From contig OX597818.1 in NCBI GenBank assembly GCA_951406725.2, forward strand, positions 145,948,001-146,012,000: a stretch of 64,000 bases of DNA. Direction: 5' to 3'. Position numbers and translations under genes: made by a program. Shown one piece after another: positions 1 to 50,216 of this stretch; positions within the stretch are counted from its first letter, which is position 1, and each line of letters opens with the position of its first letter. The DNA is from Octopus vulgaris. Its lineage: Eukaryota. Below the pieces are notes generated by a model. It ran no database searches, was not told the DNA's origin, and saw only the letters and a program-made list of their open reading frames with translations.

Positions 1-391
1 TGTATGAATGTATGTATGTATGTATGTATGTATGTATGTATGTATGTATGTATGTATGTATGTATGTATGCATGCATGCATGTATGTATGTATGTATGTA
101 TGTATGTATGTATGTATGTATGTATGTATGATGTATGCATGTATGTATGTATGTATGTATGTATGTATGTATGTATGATGTATGTATGTATGTATGTATG
201 TATGTATGTATGTATGTATGTATGTATGTATGTATGTATGTTTGTATGTATGTATGTATGTATGTATGTATGTATGTATGTATGTTTGTATGTATGTATG
301 TATGTATGTATGTATGTATGTATGTATGTATGTATGTATGTATGTATGTATGTATGTATGTATGATGTATGTATGTATGAATGTATGCATG

Positions 392-425
<34 letters not shown>

Positions 426-565
426 TGTATGTATGTATGTATGTATGTATGTATGTATGTATGTATGTTTGTATGTATGTATGTATGTATGTATGTATGT
501 ATGTATGTATGATGTATGTATGTATGTATGTATGTATGATGTATGTATGTATGAATGTATGCATG

Positions 566-597
<32 letters not shown>

Positions 598-716
598 CAT
601 GTATATATGTATGAATGTATGTATGTATGTATGTATGTATGTATGTATGATGTATGTATGTATGTATGTATGTATGATGTATGTATGTATGTATGTATGA
701 TGTATGTATGTATGTA
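1..716. repeat. (TATG)n microsatellite, truncated by the window start
   Basis: Directly visible; source of the MYVC ORFs. Confidence 0.99.
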
Positions 717-975
717 TAATGCTTAAAGACTTAACAAACTTTTTCCTTTTTTCCTTTACTTTTTCCTCCTGTCTATTTTCCTCCGATAAGCTCCAAATCA
801 TTCTGACAATGCTTGTTAAATGGAGCAAGATAAGTGCAAATTTACTTCAAAAATAACAAACTGAAACAGCTGTAAACGTTTTTTTTTTAACTGCAATTAA
901 ACTATGATTAATAACAATGATTAACTTCTACTCATTAATTGTTATTCCATTTCTTTTCTTATCCATATATAAGTA

Positions 976-21417: not shown

Positions 21418-21582
21418 TCAGTTAACTGCAGATGAATCTGAAGTGGGTCTGATCATTCGCTTTGGTCCTCGATTTGAAGGGCCTTTTGGTTTAGCAAATG
21501 CTTGCCGAGCAATATTTTTCTTTGGATGAAGTTCATCCTGCAGGAACTCCTCAGTTAATTCAGCACCCTCAGAAATTTCAAC
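21418..21582 (-). CDS. TWF: Twinfilin last coding exon (VEISEGAELTEEFLQDELHPKKNIARQAFAKPKGPSNRGPKRMIRPTSDSSAVN*)
   Basis: Poly-T CTAG acceptor, FAKPKGP tail motif (capping-protein binding), TGA stop at 21420-21418. Confidence 0.96.
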   Translation of the reverse strand, partial: VEISEGAELTEEFLQDELHPKKNIARQAFAKPKGPSNRGPKRMIRPTSDSSAVN

Positions 21583-25589: not shown

Positions 25590-25711
25590 CTTCTTGACAA
25601 TTTCCATTCCCATATTCTGTTCAACATAACTGAGAAAACAAGATTTACAGCTTGAATAAAGCATTCTTTCTTTCACTGGAATACTATAACCAGGAGTAGA
25701 ATATATGAATA
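25590..25711 (-). CDS. TWF: Twinfilin coding exon (122 bp; (V)FIYSTPGYSIPVKERMLYSSCKSCFLSYVEQNMGMEIVKK)
   Basis: GCAG acceptor, GTGAGT donor, FIYS.PGY...ERMLYSSCK motif. Confidence 0.96.
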
Positions 25712-26308: not shown

Positions 26309-26714
26309 TTAACTTTTTAGCATTTAAACCGGCCATACCAGGTCCAAATAGTCTCTGTTTTATATTCAAACTGGTGAGATCTAGCTTCTCACACCCTAAC
26401 TTAGAATGTCATTTTAAAAATAAACAATGCCATCATTGAAATCTCAAAGCTATGTGATAGTGCATGATTAATTCAAAGCAATGTGAATAAAGAAGTCTTA
26501 TACAGAGAGATGTGACAGGGTGATGCCATAGTAGGATGGTGAGACGGTGGGGTGCTATGCTACGAGAAGTAAAGTTGAGCTAGAAGGAAAGAATGAACAG
26601 GTAGAAGGAGGGGGTGATACTTGGGGAAGGGATGTAGCAGTTTCTCGATGGGGAAACCAATGTGAATAAATAAGCATTAAATTTGGCAGAATAATCTGAA
26701 CGCTAAAGAGTTAA
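26309..26714 (+). mobile_element. Family A MITE interrupted by a 162-bp insertion
   Basis: Matches 31955-32173 except for 26496-26657, which is bracketed by a 17-bp direct repeat. Confidence 0.75.
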
Positions 26715-26729
26715 AAACAATCTTGCCAG

Positions 26730-27435
26730 TTGTGTGAAAAAGTGCCACACCCTAACGGTTGAGGGAACCTGTGGAAGAGGTAGACCCAGGAAAACCTGGG
26801 ACGAGGTGGTGAAGCATGACCTTCGCTCTTCCGAGACCTTTGGAAGTATGCTGTGCGTGAGAAGACCCGGCAGGACAAGTGAGGCCATAACCCGTGGCCC
26901 CTACCTGGGACGTAGTCAGTCCACCTGTGCATACCTTCCTTCTTGGGACACATAACTCTACTTGTGAAGACCTGTTGAGGCAAATGAAAATCAAAGAATC
27001 AAAGAATCAAATCAAAATCGAAATCAATCAACATCAATGGAATTTGTAGTGTGGTACAAGTGCCGGTGGCACATAAGAGAACCATCCGAACGTGGCCGTA
27101 GCCAGCACTGCATCGACTGGCCTCCGTGCTGGTGGCACGTAACAAAGACCATCCGATCATGGCCGTTGCCAGCCTTGCCTGGCTTCCATGCCGGTGGCAC
27201 GTAAAAAGCACCATCCGAGTGTGGCCGTTCGCCAGCCTTGTCTGGCACCTGTGTCAGTGGCACATAAAAATCACCCACTACACTCTCGGAGTGGTTGGCG
27301 TTAGGAAGGGCATCCAGCTGTAGAAACACTGCCAGATCTGACTGGCCTGGTGCAGCCTTCGGGCTTCCCAGACCCCAGTTGAACCGTCCAACCCATGCTA
27401 GCATGGAAAGCGGACGTTAAACGATGATGATGATG
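26730..27435 (+). mobile_element. Well-preserved 3' end of an RTE-like LINE: ORF C-terminus, subrepeat 3'UTR, (GAT)n tail
   Basis: KKCHTLTVEGTCGRGRPRKTWDEVVKHDLR, then GTGGCAC subrepeats and CATGGAAAGCGGACGTTAAACGATGATG. Confidence 0.8.
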
Positions 27436-27859
27436 AAAGAATAATGCATATAGAACATCGTAATTTCTTTAATGATTTAATATATTTAAACAGACGAAAT
27501 GTAGCCAGCAAAAGAAGAATACGATTCATTCAAATCCATTAAACAAGCCAATGCTGATGTATTACTCAAAGTTAAAATACACAGAAAATTACATCTTGGA
27601 TTCTTTCATAGATTCACCAGTTTGATATGAACGCATTGGCCGTGGCTATGTAGTTAAACCTGAAAATGTCATGGATGCAATTCCTTACATCTAATTAAAC
27701 TGCTAAATAAGGGCTCAATATTTACAACTCTTATCTTGTCACTTGCTAATAGGTACAGTTATCCAGACACAGCTCACTCGTGGGTCAAAGTCATTTCTTA
27801 TTGGGAGCCATTGCATTCACAGACCAACGCATGTACATGTCATCTTTTTTTTGCTTTCT

Positions 27860-30220
27860 ACAATAGGATCCCCTTCCTATCTGCAACCATTCTAAAGCCA
27901 TGTAATCATCAGTCTGGTGTGCACTCAAGCCAGACTGACAACATTCTCACCAGAAACAGCGATAGACAGATGCTCATAACTGCAAAGTTCTTTCGCAGTG
28001 AGGAACATACAACTCAACATAAGTTAGTGGTTAGCGATTTCAGACTTAAGGCTAGATGGAACCAGAGATGCAAACCAGTTTGGAAAAGGAAATTATGAAA
28101 CCTACAAGATCCATCAAGGAGTCAGAGATTTAGAGACATTCTGATTAAAGCATTTGATAAGAAAGTGGAGGAGGTTGTGACATATAACATAGAGGACAAC
28201 TGGAAATTCTTACAAGACAATCTTCTGAAGCCTACAGACTAAATTTATGGCTGAGGCAAAGAGTGGTAAGGTGGTGGAACAGTGAGATAGATAAGGTCAT
28301 AAAAGCAAAGAGACAGGCTTGGAAAGATTGGAGAAATAGAGACAGCAAAGGGCTATAGCAAGTAGACTAGGCAATAGGTTGATCTAGCAAGGACAGAAGC
28401 AGAACAGAAGAGATTTGCTAATGTCTTACAGAGTGAAAATCAGAGGCTTGAGGAGTTCCAGATTGCTAGAAAGTGTGTCAGAGACAATAGAGGTGTTGTG
28501 GGAGAGAAGTGTGTATGGATGATGGTATGCTTGCACTTAGTGACTCTGGGAAGTACTACTATGAAAGGCAATCAAATGTGGAGAGTGAATGGGAGAAAGG
28601 GAGTCTTACCTATAGGAACCTGACAGGGGTAACAGCTATTCAAGTTGACAGCAGTATGACAGATAAGGTAATAAGAAGACAGGGGAAGCCCCTGGTTTAT
28701 TGGGAGTCAGCACGGAGATGCTTAAAATATCTGATGGAGTAGGATACAATCTGGTCACCTGTACAGTTAATAAAGTTGTTCAGGAAAGTGTCATCTCCAA
28801 TAATTGATGTAGCAGCATTATAGTCAGCTGCTACAAGAGTAAGGGAGATGTCTGAGAGAGAAGTAATTACAGAGACATCAAATAGCTGGACCATGGTCAT
28901 CAAGGTTATGAAAAGAGTTATAGCCCAATCAATTAGGAACAGAATCAGATTAGTTGAAATGCAGTTTGAATTTGTGCCAAGGAGAAGCACTACTGATGTT
29001 ATTCTAAAAGTCAGACAACTTCAGAAGTATTTAACAAAGAATAAACCATTGGACTAGGCTTTTCTTGACTTGGAGAAAGCCTTTGACAGAGTACTCCATT
29101 GTGTGATATGGTGGGCTCTGAGGAAGCTAAAGGTAGACAAGTGGCCTGTGAAAGATGTATAGGCCATGTTCAGAGGGTCTATCAGTAAAGTGACAGTAAG
29201 GTGAGAGTTAAACAGGAATATAGTGATGAAATTAAGGTTTGGTTCTCAGTCCCCTCCTTTTCATCATTGTCCTCCAGGCCTGTTCAAGACCAGCCAGCTG
29301 CCCCTGGGAACTGCTCTATGCCAATGATCTTGCTTTCATAGCAGATTCTGCAACAGAACTAGAAAAGAAATTCCAGACATGGAAACAAAACCTGGAATCA
29401 AAAGGCATTGAGGTTAACTTAGCAAAGACCAAGGTTCTAATAAACAAGAAAACAGACAGAATCCAACCCACTTCAGGTAAATGACCCAGTTTGATATGTA
29501 GGAAGAGTGTATGCAGGAATTTCATATGGTGTACCCAGTACAAACTATGGACACACAAGAGGCATAGTGGAATAATAAGAAGGTTAACAGAGAAAGAAGT
29601 GCTTGTATGTGGAAGATGCACAGGAGGAATAAAGTCTACAGAGACACAGGAAATTGATTTTTTCTCAAATACCCCAGAGAGTTTGTGGATAATTTCTGCT
29701 AATTAGTTCCCAGGGAACCTAATTAGCAGTGGAGGAGGATGTATGGAAAGTGTAATTGCTTGAATACGAATAGGATGGAGAAAATTCAGAGAACTTTTAC
29801 TTCTGTCAGCAACCAAATTTATAGAAACTCCAATGCTACATGGTAGTGAGATGTGGGCTGTGAATGCAGACAACATGTGAAGACTAGAAAAGAATAAAGT
29901 TAGTAGGCTCCGTTGGATGTGCAATGTCAGTGTACACACGTGACAGAGGACTAGGATATTGTGAGTTAGTGTAGGAGGAATTAGATGCATATGTGCAAGA
30001 GAGAAGACTACACTGGTTTGGTCATATGATGCATATGAACGTGGACAGTTGCATAAAGTGCCAATCACTTAAAAGTAAAGGGAACTTGTGGAAGAGGGAG
30101 ACCCAGGAGGATATGAGACAAAGTATTGCAGGCTGATCAAGACACTGAGCCTTACAAACCTACAAAGATGACAAATAACCGAGATACCTGGCATCTTGCT
30201 ATACTCAAGGCTACCACAGC
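27860..30220 (+). mobile_element. Decayed RTE-like non-LTR retrotransposon (endonuclease end, RT, Cys-rich region)
   Basis: QHKLVVSDF, QFEFVPRRSTTD, FLDLEKAFDRV (~29060-29093), LSPLLFIIVL, LLYANDL, VNLAKTKVL, terminal GRGRP; many stops. Confidence 0.88.
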
Positions 30221-32302: not shown

Positions 32303-32453
32303 CAATGCTCTCTATAAAGTCTCCTTCATGGGTATGTTTGAATATAAAGAAGTGATACCGGGCATGGTTATCAGGCACTTTCATTGGTAATGAACTGACG
32401 TCTATGTCGGCTTCAGTTTCTAAGCAAATTCTTTCTCTTTCAATATCAATACT
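32303..32453 (-). CDS. TWF: Twinfilin coding exon (151 bp; SIDIERERICLETEADIDVSSLPMKVPDNHARYHFFIFKHTHEGDFIESI(V))
   Basis: Within ORF 32226..32483(-). CAG acceptor, GTTTGT donor, ARYHFF.FKH.HEGD motif of the second ADF-H domain. Confidence 0.95.
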
Positions 32454-34010: not shown

Positions 34011-35160
34011 ACGAGGTCATCCCATAAGTAATGTGGTCTTTCTGTAGTAGGCTTTGAAAAAATAAAAAAGGCAAGTGAGGTACCAATTTAATCAACAATA
34101 TATTCCCCATCTGAATCAATATCCTTCCAATGCTATAAAAAAGTTTTTTATGCCATTCCTATAGAAATCAGCTGGCTTAGAAGAGAACATCTCTTGAAGG
34201 TCCGTTTCAAGTGCCTCTAAAGAATTGTATTCTTTTCCATCAATAAAATTTTGCAAACTTTGGAATAAATAATAATCCAAAGGATATGGAAACCTTTCCC
34301 AACTTAGCTCCCCAATCTTGGTACATGTAATTCTTGCCCTATGAGGTCTGGCATTGTCATGATGGTAAATGATACACATTCAATTGAATAGGAAGCATCT
34401 TTTTTCTGCAAGTTTTTCATTGTCTACCAATTTGTTCACAGTACACTTCAACTGTAATTGTCTGGTTTTGTGGTGGCAAAGTTCCAAAGTGTATTACACC
34501 AAACATGTTCCAGTAAACTTTCTGAGGATGATCTTTTTTTTTTAGATGGGGTCCTACTTGTTCTCCTAGTTGAACCCATTGACATTGGTGATTAACATTA
34601 TTATAGAGTATCCCCTTTTCAAAAATGGAGGCTTTTTTCTCACATGAATAAAGAGCAGTGCAGATATTGACATGTTCTCTTTGATTGTTTTCACTCAGTT
34701 CATCTGGAACCCACTTTCAAAGCTTAGACACAATTCCAAGTTTTTGCATATGGCGATAGATAGTTGTATATGGACTTCTTCCAGTAATAGCTTTCAATAC
34801 ATCATTATCAAAACAGTCAGGGCACCCAGAACGGCAAACCGTTTATAGAACCACCATTGGCACTTGCAATTATTCAAAACACTTTCATTATACACTTCTT
34901 GCACATTTTTTACAATTCTTGCATTGTTGCCTTTTTTATGCTCGTAAAGCATGATGAGTCTAATGTGCTCTTCTGTAGCCTCCATTCTCATGAGGGTAAT
35001 TAAAGCAACAAATTATTACTTGTGTGTCTGCAAGCCAGAATCTCTCTAATTGAAGCTTTCCTTAGCTCTGTGGTGTTTATGCACCCATGAAAAAATATTG
35101 TTTAAATATGTTAGAGCACGTTTCACCAAGTACAGTCTGATAAACAACATTACTTATATA
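34011..35160 (-). mobile_element. Decayed mariner transposon (second family)
   Basis: ORF pieces EEHIRLIMLYEHKKGNNA (HTH) and HHDNARPH...DYYLFQSLQNF...FYRNGI; partial TIR ATAAGTAATG / CATTACTTAT. Confidence 0.88.
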
Positions 35161-36381: not shown

Positions 36382-36507
36382 AATCTGGACATAAGTTATT
36401 AAACCATTCCTCAGGCGCTCCAAAGCCGCAACACAATCATTTGCTATAGGGAATGCTAGACCTTGCATAGTTTGATTCTTTGTATCAATGTTCACATCAG
36501 TATTCAC
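36382..36507 (-). CDS. TWF: Twinfilin coding exon (126 bp; [42 protein letters not shown])
   Basis: 5' part of ORF 36121..36507(-). Poly-T AG acceptor, GTAAGT donor, DTK.QT.QG.AFPI motif. Confidence 0.96.
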
Positions 36508-39883: not shown

Positions 39884-39988
39884 TTCAGTTTTCCTAATAA
39901 TTTCTAGCTCTTCCTCAGCAAACGTTAGTGGAGCAGGTGCCTTTTGGAATTCTATGTGTTTGAGAAAGCCATTCAGAGAGATATCCTC
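39884..39988 (-). CDS. TWF: Twinfilin coding exon (105 bp; EDISLNGFLKHIEFQKAPAPLTFAEEELEIIRKTE)
   Basis: TTTTTAG acceptor, GTAAGT donor, PAPLT.AEEEL linker motif. Confidence 0.96.
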
Positions 39989-42358
39989 CTAAAAATATTA
40001 AAGTATGTAAAGTTGATAAGTATTTGATCCCAGGCTGGATTTACATAACAAAATGACAAGAGAGGAAGAGAAATGCTAAGGGGTGGTGAAATAATCTGTG
40101 GAGACACCAAAGATGGAGGAGCTTGATAAGTGAGGCTGAAGAGACTACTGACTATGGTGAGAAGGAATCAACAATAGTGAGGTGACAGAGAGATATGGTT
40201 AAGGGGAAACACTGACAACAGTTGGATAGGAGATAGACAGGCACAACTGGGATATGGGAAGAGACAGTGACATCAAAGGGTAGGAGATTAAGACAATAGT
40301 GGGATGGGAGAGAGACTGTGATAATAGTGAGGTAGGAGAGAGAGATTGTAACAACTACAGGTTAGAAGAGAAAGACTATTATAAAAGTGGTGTAGAACTA
40401 GAGCCCTTAAAATCATATTAAATACTAAGTCTTAGTATCACTAATGACCTACCTTGGTAGTCTTCCTCACATCTACAAGAAAAAAACTGCATCCCAAAGA
40501 CTGACCTGGCTCTACTATACCCACATCTGAAACAATGCAGCTACTGCACATACGAAAATCCAAGACTACCCAAAAGAAAGTCATCAAACTGATTGGCAAG
40601 GTCCCACTCTATCAGAATTATTATAACTGCTAACCCACAGACATGCAGTATCTTCACTCTGCCTCTGAATTTCATGAAAAGTAGTAGCATGGCACTTTCA
40701 GAAAATAATGGACATTAGAAAGTAACCTAAAAAAACAATATATATACATATATATATATCATCATCATTATCATCATCGCTTAATGTCCGCCTTCCATGC
40801 TGGCATGGGTTGGACAGTTTGACAGGAGCCAGCCAGGTAGAAGACTATAACATACTTCTGTGTCTGTTTTGGCATGGTTTTTATGGCTGGATGCCCTTCC
40901 TAACACCAACCACCCCACAGAGTAGACCAAATGCTTTTTATGTGGCATCAGCACAGGTGAGGTCAGTTTTGGCATGGTTTTTATAGCGGATGCCCTTTCA
41001 AATGCCAACCACTTCAGTGTGGACTGGAAGCTTTTTATGTGGCACCAGTACCAGCAGGGTCGCCAAGTAACCTGCAAGTCAAGGAATTTTGAGAGGAGAG
41101 GAGGCATTGGAGGTGGTGATCTTGTGTTAGATGATGAAAGTATAGAGTGTGACAGTGAGACAGAAACAGGTGTCTTGCTATAGAGGTATGGTCATGTGCT
41201 GCAAGAGAGCTGTGTGAAGAAGTGTCCCTCCCTAACAGTGGAATCATCAGGCAACACACAGTACTTGAGGAGACCTATTGAGTCGAGTAAAATCAAAAAT
41301 CAAACCATAATCAAATGGAAATTGTAGTTGTGGCCAATGCCAGTGCCACCCAACTGGCTCCCATGCTAGTGGCACGCAATAAGCACCATTCATGTGTGGG
41401 TCGTTGCCAGTGCCCACCTGACTGGCTCCCCATGCCAGTGGCACATAAAAAGCACCTACTACACTTTCAGAGTAGTTGGTGTTAGGAAGAGCATCCAGCT
41501 GTAGAAACACTGCCAGATCAGATTGGAGCCTGGTGCGGCCTCCTGGCTTGCCAGTCCCCAGTCAAACTGTCCAACCCATGCCAGCACAGAAAACGGACGT
41601 TAAATGATGATGATGATGATAATATAAATACAAGTACAACATCAATTTTGAGGAACAGTTGGTTCTGAAGCCTTTCTAGTTGAAAGTTTTTTTTGAAACC
41701 AGACCTTAAATCAAATTTACTTAAATAATTAAATAAGATACAGGTAACTGTTCCCTCTCTCTCTCTTTCGGAGAGGCACTGAGCAGCTATACGCACACAC
41801 ACACACACGGCAGTAACTCCTGCCTACCGAATTCAATCACAAAGCTCCAGTCGGCTCGGGGCTATAGTGGAAGACACCTACCCAAAGTGCCACACAGTGG
41901 AACTGAACCCGAAACCATGTAGTTCATTAGTGAAAATTAGTGTGGATCATAAAAGGTTCCAGACCATCAGTGACTAGAAAGTTGGTGTTGTACCTGAATA
42001 TAAGCATTGTTTGCAGGTGGTTTCTAATGTACTTAGTTGATAATTTAATAGGATTCTGACCATTAAAAAATAAGATTTTCAAGTAGGAAATAGTGAAAAT
42101 TAACAAATAGTAGCAGTAACCCTGAAAAATAGCAAAACCCATCACTTTTAGCTGAACCTGGCAGCATTTATTGACTTGTAGCAGTTAAAGTTGAAAATGA
42201 ACACCAAAATAACAGGTGTAGAGAATGTACAACAGTTATGGGACAGCTTCTTCCACCTGGCTAAAGTTGAAAGAGAAGAGATAACAACAGGGGGAGTGAA
42301 AGAGAGACTATGACAATAACGGTGGTGGATTTTATTTCCATAAAAAATTGTGACTTAC

Positions 42359-42454
42359 TTCAACTGTGCCAAATAATTCTTCTTTTATTGCACCTCCGCC
42401 AAACTCAGATTTCAAGGTTGCCCTTGTAGCAGCGTATACCATTTTCTCGCGCAC
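42359..42454 (-). CDS. TWF: Twinfilin coding exon (96 bp; [32 protein letters not shown])
   Basis: TAG acceptor, GTAAGT donor, diagnostic [16 protein letters not shown] motif. Confidence 0.96.
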
Positions 42455-42738
42455 CTAGATGAGAAGGAAGTCATCAAAACAAAAGTGAAAAAAAAAAAAG
42501 GAATAGAAACCTCAATAGTAAACATTTATGAAATGTTTATGGGAAAACCATAAAGTAATATTTATTTGTCTTCGAGAAAGGGGACCAAAATTACTTATAC
42601 AGAATGGATCCCTTTTAGAACTGTCGTGATAGAAACGATTATATAAGGCTGTGATTATAAGAGTATCTCTTATGCCACAGTCCCATTGAAAGATTTGAAC
42701 TCAGCACAGCAAAATCATTTGTCAACATCAGTTAATTA

Positions 42739-43110
42739 GGTGTAGGAGTGGCTGTGTGGTAAGTAGCTTGCTTACCAACCACATGGTTCAGTCCCACTGC
42801 GTAGCATCTTGGGCAACTGTCTTCTACTATAGCCTCAGGCCAACCAAAGCCTTGTGAGTGGATTTGGTAGACGGAAACTGAAAGAAGCCTGTTGTATATA
42901 TATGTGTGTGTGTGTGTCTGTGTTTGTCCCCCCAACATTGCTTGACAACTGATGCTGGTGTGTTTACATGCCCGTAACTTAGCAGTTCAGCAAAAGAGAC
43001 CGATAGAATAAGTACTAGGCTTTCAAAGAATAAGTCCTGGGGTCGATTTGCTCGATAAAGGCAGTGCTCCAGCATGGCCGCAGTCAAATGACCGAAACAA
43101 GCAAAAGAGT
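42739..43110 (+). mobile_element. tRNA-headed SINE, family 1
   Basis: Colinear with 976-1385, including the tail GCTCCAGCATGGCCGCAGTCAAATGACCGAAACAAG. Confidence 0.85.
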
Positions 43111-43744
43111 GTTTGCTACTGATGAAAACTGTTAGCAATAATCTACTCATGATTCTTGTCTTTAATAATTCTACCAAACCACTATCATAATGATGATGAT
43201 GGTTTCTAATTTAGGCACAAGGCCAGCAGTTTAGGGTTAGGGTTATAATGAAGCAACCCCAGTACTGGGGTTTTATTTATCAACTCCAGAAGAATGAAAA
43301 ACAAAGTTGAGTTCAGTGAGATTTGAATTCAGAACATTAAAGAGCTGGAATAAATACTTCAAGACATATTGTTTGGTGTTCTGACAATTCTGCCAAATAA
43401 TAACTTCTTACATAAATACAAAGCCAGAAATTTTGCAGAGAGAGAACAGTCAATAATATTGACCTTGGCAAAATTTGAACACAGAACATAAAAATCATTG
43501 GTACTCTCTTTGATGCTCTAATGATTCTACCAATCCATCACCTTGGCAAAAGACTACTAATTTGGTAAGGAAGAGAGACAGATTTTTAAATCAACCCTTC
43601 TTTATTACTTGTAGTCATTTTATCATCACTGAAGGTATCAAATGCTAAAGGTGACTTCAGGGAAATTTGAACCCTGAACAGAAACAAAGAATGAAGAAAA
43701 AAAAAATTCAGTAAAATATTTAATCTGAAAATAATAATACTTAC

Positions 43745-43872
43745 CGGTGAAAAGTCCGGAGACCAAGCAATAAAGAGCCATTCATATCCAAGGTTATTTT
43801 TTGTATCCAAGCGATATAGTAAGTAAGAAGGTTTCTTATCATCCAAATTGGCAAGGACCATTTTATCATAAT
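43745..43872 (-). CDS. TWF: Twinfilin coding exon 3b (128 bp; (D)[42 protein letters not shown])
   Basis: Lies in ORF 43586..43912(-). ADF-H motif [14 protein letters not shown] acceptor preceded by TCCTTAAC; GTAAGT donor at 43744. Confidence 0.93.
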
Positions 43873-44597
43873 GTGAAAGATCTGTTAAGGATATTATATA
43901 TGTCTGTGGCATCTGTTAGTCACATAAAATCATAGATCCATAACCAGGAAGTATTGATTCATAAACAACACACACACATACAGAGAGAGAGACGGGGGAG
44001 AGACAGACAGACAGACAATGAAAATGAGCTGAGAGAAGTGAGTGGCATGAATCTGGGCTACAAAGACGTAAGTTAAATGACATCCATAATAAATTCTTGA
44101 TTTTAATGAAATTATATCTTCACTTCAAGCAAAGATAAAACAAACACCTAGTGGCAACTGCAACAAACTCTGAACAAAGAAGGGAGATAATCTCAAGGAA
44201 TCATTAATTACCCAGAATTGACAAGATGGTATAATATCATTACCATCAACAACATTTTAATACCACTTTCCGTGCTAGTATATACTGGACAGAACATCGC
44301 AGACCAAGTCGTTTCTTTTTGGGAACCATCATTCCCATTGACTGGTGTGCTCACACATACTATTTCGGTTAGTTTCTATGGCTGGATGCAATTCCAATCA
44401 CCGACTGCATTACAGAGTATACTGGATACATTTTCTCAAGGTACCAATATCAGAGAGGTTGAGTAGTCCTTGGCAAAACAGGAATAAAAGGACCTCACAG
44501 AACGACACCTTCTCTGCTTATTTACCAAAGACTCTACAGTGTATACTGGCTGCATTTACCATGGCACCAACACTAAAGACACTGCCTTGTTCATATA

Positions 44598-45420
44598 TAC
44601 ATGGGTTGGACAAAATAATGGAAACACCTAGCATCATAGCATCATAATTTTGAAATATCTATAAAACCATCAAAAGCTTGTTTATTTTTATGTATTTTCA
44701 TTTATTATTAGTGTTGCTTAATATGTTTTGCTAAAATTGCTGTTTCTTTTCAGATATCACCAGAAAAAGGTAATTAAAATTCATTAAAATGACAGATCTA
44801 TCGGACTTTCAAAGAGGTCAAATTGTTGGTGCTCATATGGCAGGCGCTAGTGTAACGAAAACAGCCAAAATGTTTGGTGTATCAAGAAGTACTGTCTTGA
44901 AAGTAATGACAGCATTTGAGAAAGAGGGAAAACCTCCTTGTCAAAGCAAAACTCCGGAAGAAAACCAAAACTTTCAGATAGGGACCGTCGGAATTTTACA
45001 CGAATTGTTAGAAAGGATCACAAAAGTACAGCTCCAAAATTACTGCAGAGCTTAATGACCACCTCAAGAACCCAGTTTCCACAAAAACTGTTTGCCAGAA
45101 GTTGCACAAAGCCAGATTTCACAGGAAGGCTTCAATCAGAAAACCATACTTTCAAAAACAAACGTTGCAAAGTGTTTAGAGTGGAGTAAAAACCTACAGA
45201 ATTGGTCCTTAGAGTAGTGGAAGAATGTTATTTTCTTGGACAAGTCATTCCTTTACCATATTTCTGACAATTGGCTGGGTATACATGTGGAGACAACCAA
45301 AAGAAGCATCTGACCCAGACTGCCTTCTTCCAACTGTTAAACATGGAGGATCTGTGATGATCGGGTGTGGGGGGGGGGGGCTATATCTTGGAAATCCACC
45401 AGTCCAATGGTTTCTCTTCA
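44598..45420 (+). mobile_element. 3'-truncated, frameshifted Tc1-like transposon inside the U12 intron
   Basis: Left end TACATGGGTTGGACAAAATAATGGAAACACC; MTDLSDFQRGQIVGAHMAGASVTKTAKMFGVSRSTV (HTH), SGRKPKLSDRDRR, PTVKHGGSVM. Confidence 0.88.
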
Positions 45421-46101
45421 TGCCATTTCTAGCATGTCAAGTCATGTTTATTGGTTCATCTGTCAGGAGCTATTAAAGAGATATCTGCACCCATAAGTCC
45501 AAGCTCAAGAAAAGTTTCCTTCACAGTATTGTCACCACACTAAATAATATTCTTGTCAGGCTGTAAGAAATAGCAGTCAAATCTTCCCTCAAACCACACT
45601 CTACCATCTTCAATAAGGAAGGGTCAGACTGGCCAATAGAATCCTAGATATGTTCATTCATTTATTTTGCATCCATTTTTCTTACTTGCATCTGACAGAA
45701 GAATCTTATTTGAAACCGTTTTACAGCTGGATGACTTTTTAATGCCATCTCTTATCCGTTTCCTAAGTAATAGGTCTCTAATTCAACATGGATTCCAAGG
45801 CACAACGTAACCGGATAATTTATTGACAGGAGAAACTAACACCACCTGTTGCTCTTTCGTATAAGCAATTTCAGATGTAAAAAAAACTACATCGATAAAT
45901 ACACACACACCATCATCATGTAACATCCACTTTTCTATGCTTCTTTAGGTCAGATGGAATTTGCAAAGCAGATTTTCAACAGCCAAATGCCCTTCCTGTC
46001 ATCAACCTTCACCTGTTTCTAAACAAAGTAATATACCCCATACCCAGATATGGTTTTTAAGGAAGACTGGATTACTCTGTACTTTTATAGAGTACAAATG
46101 C

Positions 46102-46241
46102 ATTATTCTTATACCAGAATATTGTTGACAGTGACCTCAAAGTTTCAGCTAGCTAAACCATCATCAAACAGCAGTCTAACAATGACTTAGCTGGCTGAAA
46201 TTCCAAAGTCACTGGCAATAGCATTCTTGTATAAGAATAAT
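46102..46241. repeat. Fold-back inverted repeat with degenerate hammerheads in both arms
   Basis: ATTATTCTTATAC / GTATAAGAATAAT ends; cores TTGATGA..GAAAC..GTC (-) and CTAACAA..GAAA..GTC (+). Confidence 0.8.
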
Positions 46242-47085
46242 AAATGCGTGTATGTGTGAGGGAGAGAGAACTTTTGTCAAGACATCACATGATGGTCGTA
46301 AATAAGCATCAACATCATGCAAGTGAGGTTGTTTCCAGATTTCTGTGGAAAACATGTCTTGCTGTGGGAAAATATTAACTTGCTTCAAAAAAGTTGGGCG
46401 TTAGCAAACTGAAAGGGTATTTGGGCACAGAAAATTTGTCTCAATAAATTCTGATTGACCCATGTAAGCATGGAAAGTGGATATTAAATGATGATTTTGC
46501 AGATGTGTGTGTGTGTGTGCATATATAAATACACACACACACATAGAGAGAGAGTTACATATAACATAGCATTAGCTACTTCTTATTTCATGTGAAAGTT
46601 AGTATTTAGATACAGCTGGTGATATTGAAGTTTTAATTTGTGAATAAACTAATACCATAAGGAATAGTATTTTTATTTTGTCAGTCTTTCATTAAATTTC
46701 TATCTCGAGTATATCATTGATACACATGCATACACACACACACACACATGCACACATACATGCAAACAAATATGATTATAGACATACAAATACACACATA
46801 CAAAGAGGTGCAGATATACACACACACACACACACACACAAGTGCATATAGGACAAATGGTAGATACATACACCATGTCTGTGTGTGTGACACACATACA
46901 AACACACTCAATCACCAAAGTACTGACAGACAAGAAGACAATTACATAAATACACTCGCACCACACAGTTACATTTCTTGAGATATTACAATACTTCTCA
47001 CATCAAAATACCTGACAAAGAAAATACTACAAGGTCCATCATGAACTCAATATATATACCATTATATAAATGCAGATAAGGATAT

Positions 47086-47136
47086 CACTTTTCCAGTCAC
47101 CCTTTGGCAACAAATGTTTCTCTAAAACTAGCTCTT
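47086..47136 (-). CDS. TWF: Twinfilin coding exon 3a (51 bp; EELVLEKHLLPKGDWKS(D))
   Basis: GCAG acceptor after a pyrimidine tract. Exon ends at a U12-type donor ATATCCTT. Peptide matches twinfilin EQLV...W.KDYD. Confidence 0.88.
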
Positions 47137-47586
47137 CTGCAATAGAGAATGAAAAAAGAAAAAAAAAATGAAAAGAAATAAAATTGGAAGATTTTTTAAT
47201 AATTTTTTTAAATGATATTGATTATTAAAAAGAATGGTTTAATTTTTCAATAATAATGAATTTTTTAATACTAATGATTTTTTTAAATAATACTATTTTT
47301 AAAATAACAAAATATTTTTTAATATAATGATTGTTTTTTTTTCAAAATTAAAAATGGTCTTTTTAGATAATAATTTTAATAATAATTTTTGTAAATAATG
47401 AGAACTTAAATCATCTATTTTTAATAATGACTTTTGAAAACTGATTTTTTTAGATGATAATTTTTTTTTTATATAATGATTTATTTAAAGCAAAACAATA
47501 AAAATAGGTTAAAAGCACTCTTAGAGAAAAATGAACATTTTATACAAAATTACAAAGAATAAATGCAAATACATCAGTTATGAAGC

Positions 47587-50138: not shown

Positions 50139-50216
50139 CATTTTCAATACTCAACTTCATAAACCGTACACCATCACTTTTAGCCTTACCAAAAAAGACT
50201 TTTAATTCCGGAGAAG
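50139..50216 (-). CDS. TWF: Twinfilin coding exon 2 (78 bp; (A)SPELKVFFGKAKSDGVRFMKLSIEN)
   Basis: AG acceptor at 50217-50218, GTAAG donor at 50138. Peptide aligns with the twinfilin N-terminus ([26 protein letters not shown] in human, from memory). Phase 1/1. Confidence 0.92.

What the first reader, a model, noticed from the sequence alone, without database searches (positions are those of the whole stretch)
43873..47085. AT-AC minor-spliceosome intron in twinfilin, hidden behind GT/AG decoys
Seen: exon 3a ends ...TGG AAA AGT G|ATATCCTTAT and the intron ends ...TCCTTAAC AGATCTTTCAC|AT TAT GAT AAA. Established: RTATCCTT, a TCCTTAAC branch ~10-20 nt from the end, and terminal AC define U12 AT-AC introns, a very rare class. 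The join gives WKSDYDKM, gap-free against twinfilin WDKDYDSF. The exons total 51+128=179 bp, the size I recall for the single human TWF1/2 exon 3, so vertebrates may lack this intron (inference: lost there or gained here). A GT 3 nt upstream and an AG 9 nt upstream give a wrong in-frame GT-AG model (WKNLSHYDK) that predictors could adopt.
Basis: partly seen in the sequence, partly recalled or inferred. Interest (0 to 1): 0.85.

Follow-up and report, generated by a model that had tools for sequence, protein, structure and literature searches.

The report
Minor AT-AC intron in octopus twinfilin
An octopus gene for the actin-regulating protein twinfilin has a 3.2-kb intron with rare AT-AC ends that is cut out exactly in transcripts and is likely removed by the minor spliceosome; one public gene model splices it wrongly, and other animals have a minor-type intron, an ordinary intron or no intron at the same spot.

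Summary
Confirmed. The minus-strand intron 47085-43873 (3,213 nt, phase 1) of Octopus twinfilin has donor ATATCCTT, branch TCCTTAAC 12 nt from the end, and terminal AC. Contigs of three spliced-RNA runs (three studies) skip exactly 3,213 nt at the depth of the next junction; the GT-AG decoy join was not seen. The ten exons translate to RefSeq O. sinensis twinfilin, while a deposited O. vulgaris model carries exactly the decoy join WKNLSHYDK. The genome encodes U11, U12, U4atac and U6atac. The intron is not an octopus gain: of 11 genomic homologs that span the site, 3 (annelid-like) are AT-AC minor type, 3 (two bryozoan-like, one unplaced) are GT-AG major type at the same base, and 5 (arthropod-like) lack it; published mouse guides indicate no intron there. 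Best reading: an old minor intron, kept, converted or lost by lineage; a gain within lophotrochozoans is not excluded. It is an ordinary member of a known class (about 400 in O. bimaculoides), not found in print, probably already in bulk catalogues, and not noted earlier by this scan. Minor-spliceosome dependence is inferred, not tested.

The parts
43873..47085 (-). AT-AC intron (intron 3 of twinfilin), 3,213 nt, phase 1, inside the Asp52 codon
   Evidence: skipped exactly in RNA contigs X1, X2, X11
47076..47085 (-). U12-type 5' splice site ATATCCTTAT (+5 is C)
   Evidence: +4..+8 TCCTT is complementary to this genome's U6atac AAGGA and U11 AAGGG (read by eye)
43884..43891 (-). U12-type branch site TCCTTAAC; likely branch A at -13 (43885) or -14
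   Evidence: complementary to GTAAGGA of this genome's U12 with one bulged A
43873..43874 (-). terminal AC (3' splice site)
47087..47088 (-). decoy GT inside the Ser51 codon of exon 3a
   Evidence: matches the join in deposited model P0011; no such joint among those listed
43882..43883 (-). decoy AG directly behind the branch motif, 9 nt before the true end
   Evidence: matches P0011; no RNA contig depth left over for 43871-43900
47086..47136 (-). twinfilin exon 3a (51 nt)
43745..43872 (-). twinfilin exon 3b (128 nt)
50139..50216 (-). twinfilin exon 2 (78 nt); the 25-nt first coding exon lies 7.4 kb beyond the window's end
42359..42454 (-). next coding exon (96 nt); its GT-AG junction with exon 3b is the control joint
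39884..39988 (-). coding exon (105 nt)
36382..36507 (-). coding exon (126 nt)
32303..32453 (-). coding exon (151 nt)
25590..25711 (-). coding exon (122 nt)
21418..21582 (-). last coding exon to the stop codon (165 nt)
44774..45473 (+). broken Tc1-like transposon remnant inside the AT-AC intron; far from the splice signals
   Evidence: HTH domains (HTH_23 over its cut-off, HTH_SB under it) in 44774-45052; the two downstream frames hit nothing; repeat-level depth

Best explanation
The octopus twinfilin gene has a 3,213-nt AT-AC intron that is removed exactly in transcripts, likely by the minor (U12) spliceosome, and it is likely an old minor intron that other animal lineages kept, converted to an ordinary GT-AG intron or lost. 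Mechanism. Shown: junction, motifs, spacing, snRNA genes. Inferred from the known pathway: U11/U12 binds ATATCCTT and TCCTTAAC together, U6atac replaces U11, the branch A at -13 attacks the first A, and the AC 11 nt behind the branch motif is chosen. The AG directly behind the branch motif is likely too close to it and has no pyrimidine tract, and GTGATA is a poor U1 site, so the GT-AG decoy traps gene predictors rather than the cell. History (inferred): AT-AC kept in octopus and annelid-like genes, turned into GT-AG major type in bryozoan-like genes and L052, probably through a GT-AG minor stage, and deleted in vertebrates and in the arthropods sampled. No special regulatory role is claimed.
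For: RNA contigs of X1, X2, X11 (3 studies, 2 species labels) skip 3,213 nt at depths 241.8, 334.8 and 102.8, the same as the next GT-AG joint; DNA run X20 has neither joint. Ten exons give a protein identical to XP_029636633.1. All 148 of 148 aligned twinfilins (320-365 aa plus 20 transcript ORFs; P0011 left out on purpose) have five residues from W49 to Y53, and the site lies in predicted helix 49-60. U12, U11, U6atac and U4atac score over Rfam cut-offs. Branch spacing fits the 11-13 nt optimum (PMC3584512). Same position with ATATCTTT donor, CCTTGAC branch and AC in L058, L059, L074, and with GT-AG in L052, L055, L066. Published surveys find very little de novo creation of minor introns and take conversion to run from minor to major (PMC10639083; PMC2831892).
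Against: No experiment shows minor-spliceosome dependence, and intronIC could not be run. Contigs drop rare forms, and only 15 of 429 joints were printed, so low-level use of the decoy is not excluded. Every locus that has the intron could be lophotrochozoan (L052 is unplaced), and both outgroups sampled lack it, so one gain is more parsimonious by count than two losses. No cnidarian, chelicerate or invertebrate deuterostome gene was obtained. AT-AC minor introns with major-type orthologs are rare (5 of 79 clusters, PMC2831892), and no GT-AG minor intermediate was found among the 11 loci. Olthof 2024 infers a major origin for 15-20% of human minor introns.
Confidence: 0.72

Rival explanations
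1. Same splicing, younger history: the minor intron arose after the bilaterian split, in the lophotrochozoan stem, either by insertion or by conversion of a GT-AG major intron to AT-AC minor type; vertebrates and arthropods never had the minor form.
For: In the sample, AT-AC occurs only in octopus and annelid-like genes; bryozoan-like genes and L052 have GT-AG; arthropod-like genes and mouse have nothing. Occasional gain is argued in PMC11347168 and shown once in PMC2831892 (dURP).
Against: The arthropod-like loci have lost other shared introns too (L034 keeps 4 of the 9 octopus positions), so their lack says little. Major to AT-AC minor needs changes at both ends plus a new branch site. No outgroup gene was seen.
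Confidence: 0.2
2. Twintron: the GT at 47088 and the AG at 43882 are used by the major spliceosome as a real alternative, giving a twinfilin two residues longer, as in the Drosophila prospero intron.
For: The alternative is in frame and is deposited as CAI9723658.1. A GACTAAC resembling a major branch site lies about 45 nt before the end.
Against: No such joint among the printed ones, and depth in bin 43776-43939 is fully explained without any contig on 43871-43900 (141.45, 193.94, 59.55 computed against 141.4, 193.9, 59.5 listed). None of 148 aligned homologs has the insertion. It would fall in a predicted helix. Argonauta has Thr at 51, so the GT of the Ser codon cannot be there.
Confidence: 0.04
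3. The GT-AG model is the main form and the AT-AC signals are chance (the deposited O. vulgaris model is right).
For: Only the deposited model P0011.
Against: Three RNA runs skip 3,213 nt, not 3,207; RefSeq proteins of two Octopus species and a transcript-derived protein have WKSDYDK.
Confidence: 0.01
4. The AT-AC intron is removed by the major spliceosome, like the U2-type AT-AC introns of sodium-channel genes.
For: AT-AC ends alone do not fix the class (PMC2831892); a GACTAAC lies upstream of the end.
Against: Those introns have G at +5; here +5 is C, the donor and branch are full U12 consensus, and there is no extended pyrimidine tract.
Confidence: 0.03

Closest known systems
U12-type (minor) AT-AC introns of animals (PMC3584512; about 26% of human minor introns are AT-AC, PMC10639083)
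   Same: Donor, branch site, branch-to-end spacing, AT-AC ends, non-zero phase, 5' half of the gene, minor snRNA genes present.
   Different: The host gene: TWF1 and TWF2 are absent from the human and mouse minor-intron gene tables of PMC6717393 (PTEN and ACTR10 found as controls), and no paper on a twinfilin minor intron was found.
Orthologous intron clusters with both U12 and U2 members (class conversion; PMC2831892, PMC7367187)
   Same: One codon position and phase, minor type in some lineages, GT-AG major type in others, absent in others.
   Different: It belongs to the rare AT-AC group (5 of 79 in U12DB), is invisible to human-centred catalogues if vertebrates lack it, and its direction is not fixed by the present sample.
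U12/U2 twintrons (Drosophila prospero, dURP; PMC2831892)
   Same: In-frame GT and AG lie next to the AT-AC sites.
   Different: No RNA support for use of the GT-AG pair; here the pair explains an annotation error.
RefSeq twinfilin-1 of Octopus sinensis (XP_029636633.1) and O. bimaculoides (XP_014775634.1)
   Same: Protein identical to, or with the same join as, the AT-AC splice product, so the junction is already implied in RefSeq.
   Different: Only the proteins were seen, not the gene models or any class label; GenBank CAI9723658.1 (O. vulgaris) has the decoy join.

Membership tests
U12-type AT-AC intron | 5' splice site RTATCCTT with C, not G, at +5 | tested here: met
   ATATCCTTAT at 47085
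U12-type AT-AC intron | branch site TCCTTAAC-like | tested here: met
   TCCTTAAC at 43891-43884
U12-type AT-AC intron | branch site 11-13 nt from the 3' end | tested here: met
   motif ends at -12, likely branch A at -13; optimum from PMC3584512
U12-type AT-AC intron | these ends are the ones used in spliced RNA | tested here: met
   3,213-nt skip in 3 of 3 RNA runs laid; 2-nt register ambiguity gives the same mRNA
U12-type AT-AC intron | no distinct polypyrimidine tract | tested here: inconclusive
   only a 6-nt pyrimidine run between branch and AC, against long tracts at several of the gene's GT-AG introns; read by eye, not scored
U12-type AT-AC intron | minor snRNAs in the genome, complementary to the sites | tested here: met
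   U12 125.2, U11 94.5, U6atac 96.9, U4atac 83.8 bits, all over cut-off; pairing read
U12-type AT-AC intron | intronIC or PWM score over threshold | not testable with these tools
   no intronIC or matrices on hand
U12-type AT-AC intron | splicing depends on the minor spliceosome | not testable with these tools
   needs knockdown or an in vitro assay
U12/U2 twintron | both splice-site pairs used in transcripts | tested here: not met
   GT-AG join not seen in 3 RNA runs; contigs drop rare forms and the joint table was cut
U2-type AT-AC intron | G at +5 and U2-like donor | tested here: not met
   +5 is C; criterion from PMC2831892
Twinfilin | two ADF-H domains and a C-terminal tail | tested here: met
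   PF00241 in 2 stretches, E 6e-41; PDB twinfilin hits; model with two folded domains and a low-confidence tail

The most novel reading that the evidence does not exclude
A minor AT-AC intron born inside animals: it arose in the lophotrochozoan stem, by insertion or by conversion of a major intron, and is now found in both classes at one position (AT-AC in cephalopods and annelid-like worms, GT-AG in bryozoans). That would be one of very few documented minor-intron gains outside Physarum, and a tractable case of class switching.
Probability: 0.2. Interest if true: 0.6.

Novelty: new member of a known kind. Interest (0 to 1): 0.27.

Why it matters
Practically, the deposited O. vulgaris twinfilin CAI9723658.1 (also in UniRef) very likely has a wrong two-residue insertion in a helix of the first ADF-H domain; the same trap, an AG right behind the minor branch site, may affect other AT-AC introns in predictor-based annotations. 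For intron evolution, the position shows three states across animals (AT-AC minor, GT-AG major, absent) and belongs to the rare AT-AC group of class switches that human-centred lists miss. A look at a dozen public genomes would tell ancestral loss from a rare gain. As biology of the window it is ordinary: one of some 400 minor introns in an octopus genome.

Tried and rejected
Outgroup genes: scans of genome contigs and viral contigs with alignment A1 found no twinfilin. Of 80 metagenome loci kept (86 found), 27 were transcript-like; 51 of the 53 genomic ones were spliced-aligned (L038 and L082 skipped as near-duplicates), and 40 of these 51 do not span the site. An AT-AC call at residue 162 of L070 was rejected as an alignment artefact (donor ATTCCC, no branch motif). 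L052 could not be placed: two quick trees, one careful tree and a search with one of its exons gave no close relative; its GGGHIK motif, shared with vertebrates, is too slight to use. Naming the unnamed annelid-like clade through cluster members failed. Other ATATCCTT and GTATCCTT hits in the window are at chance level. The ATATCCTT that overlaps the branch site (43894) was considered as a recursive splice site and rejected, since no AC precedes it. Low-depth intronic contigs in the RNA runs (depth 3-6) cannot measure retention. No listed run is on record as RNA; the three used show spliced joints. Truncated gastropod models that start inside exon 3b (P0010, P0018, P0019) were not used as evidence, because transcript-derived proteins start there too. 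Literature: 'twinfilin'+'minor intron' (1 paper), 'twinfilin'+'U12' (5), 'minor spliceosome'+'octopus'+'U12' (3), 'minor intron'+'major-to-minor'+'conversion' (0) gave no report of this intron, judged from titles and abstract starts. Supplements of PMC10639083, PMC3291851, PMC11347168, PMC7367187 and PMC6717393 have no twinfilin or TWF entry, but only the last is known to hold full gene lists. Three look-ups of earlier scan notes found nothing on this DNA.

Full report
Observation. On the minus strand a 51-nt exon (47136-47086) is followed by ATATCCTTAT; the intron runs 3,213 nt to TCCTTAACAGATCTTTCAC (43873); a 128-nt exon follows. The join reads WKSDYDKM. Using the GT at 47088 and the AG ending at 43882 gives WKNLSHYDK. 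The motifs are not enriched in the window (ATATCCTT 4 against 4.15 expected; branch plus AC 2 against 0.55; 60 shuffles), but their placement at both exon ends has a rough joint chance of 2e-8.

Gene. Exon 3b matches twinfilins in the protein collection and in PDB and occurs once in the genome. Ten exons, the first lying 7.4 kb beyond the window, translate to a 348-aa protein identical to RefSeq O. sinensis twinfilin-1; the other eight introns are GT-AG. O. bimaculoides RefSeq and a transcript-derived protein have the same join, and Argonauta has WKTDY. The O. vulgaris GenBank protein CAI9723658.1 (350 aa) differs from the O. sinensis one only at this junction, where it reads WKNLSHYDK: the decoy model is in the public record. 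All 148 of 148 aligned twinfilins (P0011 left out) have five residues from W49 to Y53, and the site lies in predicted helix 49-60, in blocks of pLDDT 92.

RNA. Four of 24 listed runs were laid on 42300-47200. X1, X2 and X11 (three studies, two species labels; 'RNA' is the tool's guess, but they show spliced joints) each have a contig that skips 3,213 nt (43870 to 47084, two letters fitting either side, which includes 43873-47085), at the same depth as the neighbouring GT-AG joint (241.8, 334.8, 102.8). The DNA run X20, of another species label, shows neither joint. The decoy would skip 3,207 nt; it is not among the 15 of 429 joints printed, and the mean depth of bin 43776-43939 is reproduced without any contig on 43871-43900. 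Contigs drop rare variants, so this shows the main form, not the absence of a minor one. In X20 the listed differences flank the branch and acceptor (43852, 43902) with none between, but only 40 of 449 rows were shown and the donor side was not visible.

Machinery and mechanism. The genome has U12 (125.2 bits), U11 (94.5), U6atac (96.9; 43 hits) and U4atac (83.8) over Rfam cut-offs. The U12 copy has GTAAGGA, which pairs with TCCTTAAC leaving one A bulged; U11 AAGGG and U6atac AAGGA pair with TCCTT at +4..+8 (read by eye). The branch lies at the reported 11-13 nt optimum from the 3' end (PMC3584512, passages). +5 is C, which sets it apart from U2-type AT-AC introns (PMC2831892, passages). Removal by the minor spliceosome is therefore very likely (about 0.95) but inferred. 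The decoy AG sits directly behind the branch motif and has no pyrimidine tract before it; that it is unusable for this reason is inference.

Other animals. A scan of metagenome contigs gave 80 loci. I aligned 51 of the 53 genomic ones with a spliced aligner of my own that allows GT-AG, GC-AG and AT-AC; 11 span the site. L058 and L059 (near-identical) and L074 have an intron at the same base with donor ATATCTTT, branch CCTTGAC and AC end (979 and 790 nt); the same donor and branch forms occur in the human minor intron of ACTR10. L052, L055 and L066 have a GT-AG intron at the same base with major-type donors (GTACGT, GTATGT, GTAAGA) and no U12 branch motif by eye. L034 and L035 (near-identical), L043, L048 and L049 have none. 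In the careful tree (37 rows) L055 and L066 group with the bryozoan Watersipora (100/100), L058 and L074 with the annelid Lamellibrachia (89/92, not starred), L034, L043 and L048 with arthropods (100/98); L052 is unplaced; L049 joins L048 in the quick tree. For mouse, a preprint (10.1101/864769, passages) calls both of its Twf1 guides 'exon 3'; they translate to SPPSDS, before W49, and LEDKQP, after Y53, and its Twf2 guide runs across the Asp52 codon. This indicates no intron there, indirectly. TWF1 and TWF2 are absent from human and mouse minor-intron tables (PMC6717393, supplements searched, controls found).

History. The intron is not an octopus invention. The standard reading is an ancestral minor intron with conversion and loss: surveys report very little de novo creation (PMC10639083, abstract, passages and sections 8, 21, 24, 26, 27, 38), conversion from minor to major (PMC7367187, passages), and AT-AC introns converting rarely, probably through a GT-AG minor stage. 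The arthropod-like loci have lost other introns as well. Against this, all carriers may be lophotrochozoans, both outgroups sampled lack it, no intermediate was found, and PMC11347168 (passages) infers a major origin for 15-20% of human minor introns. I put ancestry with losses at about 0.75 and a later origin at about 0.2.

Novelty. The class is well known; O. bimaculoides has 401 minor introns (PMC11347168 Table S4) and molluscs are relatively enriched. O. sinensis was among the genomes run through intronIC in PMC10639083 and its RefSeq protein has the right join, so this intron is probably in the introns.info catalogue, which I could not see and which bears on both novelty and history. Four text searches and five supplement searches found no twinfilin minor intron (30, 31, 33, 49, 52; for PMC3291851 only the listing and the supplement search were seen). 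The scan's earlier notes hold nothing on this DNA. Verdict: real, correctly read, a new member of a known kind; its added value is a documented annotation error and a three-state intron position. Interest 0.27.

Noticed in passing
G000 genome-wide, L009-L012: 43 U6atac-like copies over the Rfam cut-off, many ending in a T run next to repeats, probably retrocopies. The expansion is already tabulated for O. bimaculoides (45 high-confidence copies, PMC11347168 Table S7).
   Followed up: partly
window 43894-43884 (-): The branch region reads ATATCCTTAAC, so a perfect U12 donor 8-mer overlaps the branch site 22 nt before the intron's end; no AC precedes it.
   Followed up: partly
window 43921-43904 (-): A GACTAAC resembling a major branch site, followed by two AG dinucleotides (43913 and 43904); either would shift the frame if used with the decoy GT. 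No RNA support seen.
   Followed up: partly
L043, L048, L049, L081, L084: Arthropod-like twinfilins lack the Asp52 intron where tested; L043, L048 and L049 have a different GT-AG intron at residue 72 (phase 2), and these and L081/L084 have one at 206 instead of 204.
   Followed up: no
L055, L066: The bryozoan-like genes lack the intron at residue 162 that octopus, L052 and the annelid-like genes share.
   Followed up: no
L052:523-4147 (-): A DEAD-box helicase gene that looks like DDX20/Gemin3 (named from recall of its motifs) lies head to head with twinfilin, about 300 nt apart.
   Followed up: no
window 34119-35012 (-) and 26707-29703 (+): Broken mariner transposase (Transposase_1, HTH_48) and LINE-like reverse transcriptase (RVT_1) remnants inside other twinfilin introns.
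   Followed up: partly
window 1-730: Long TATG/CATA microsatellite array that gives spurious open frames.
   Followed up: no
L093 (7.4 kb beyond the window's end): The first coding exon (25 nt) is separated from exon 2 by a 21,204-nt intron.
   Followed up: yes
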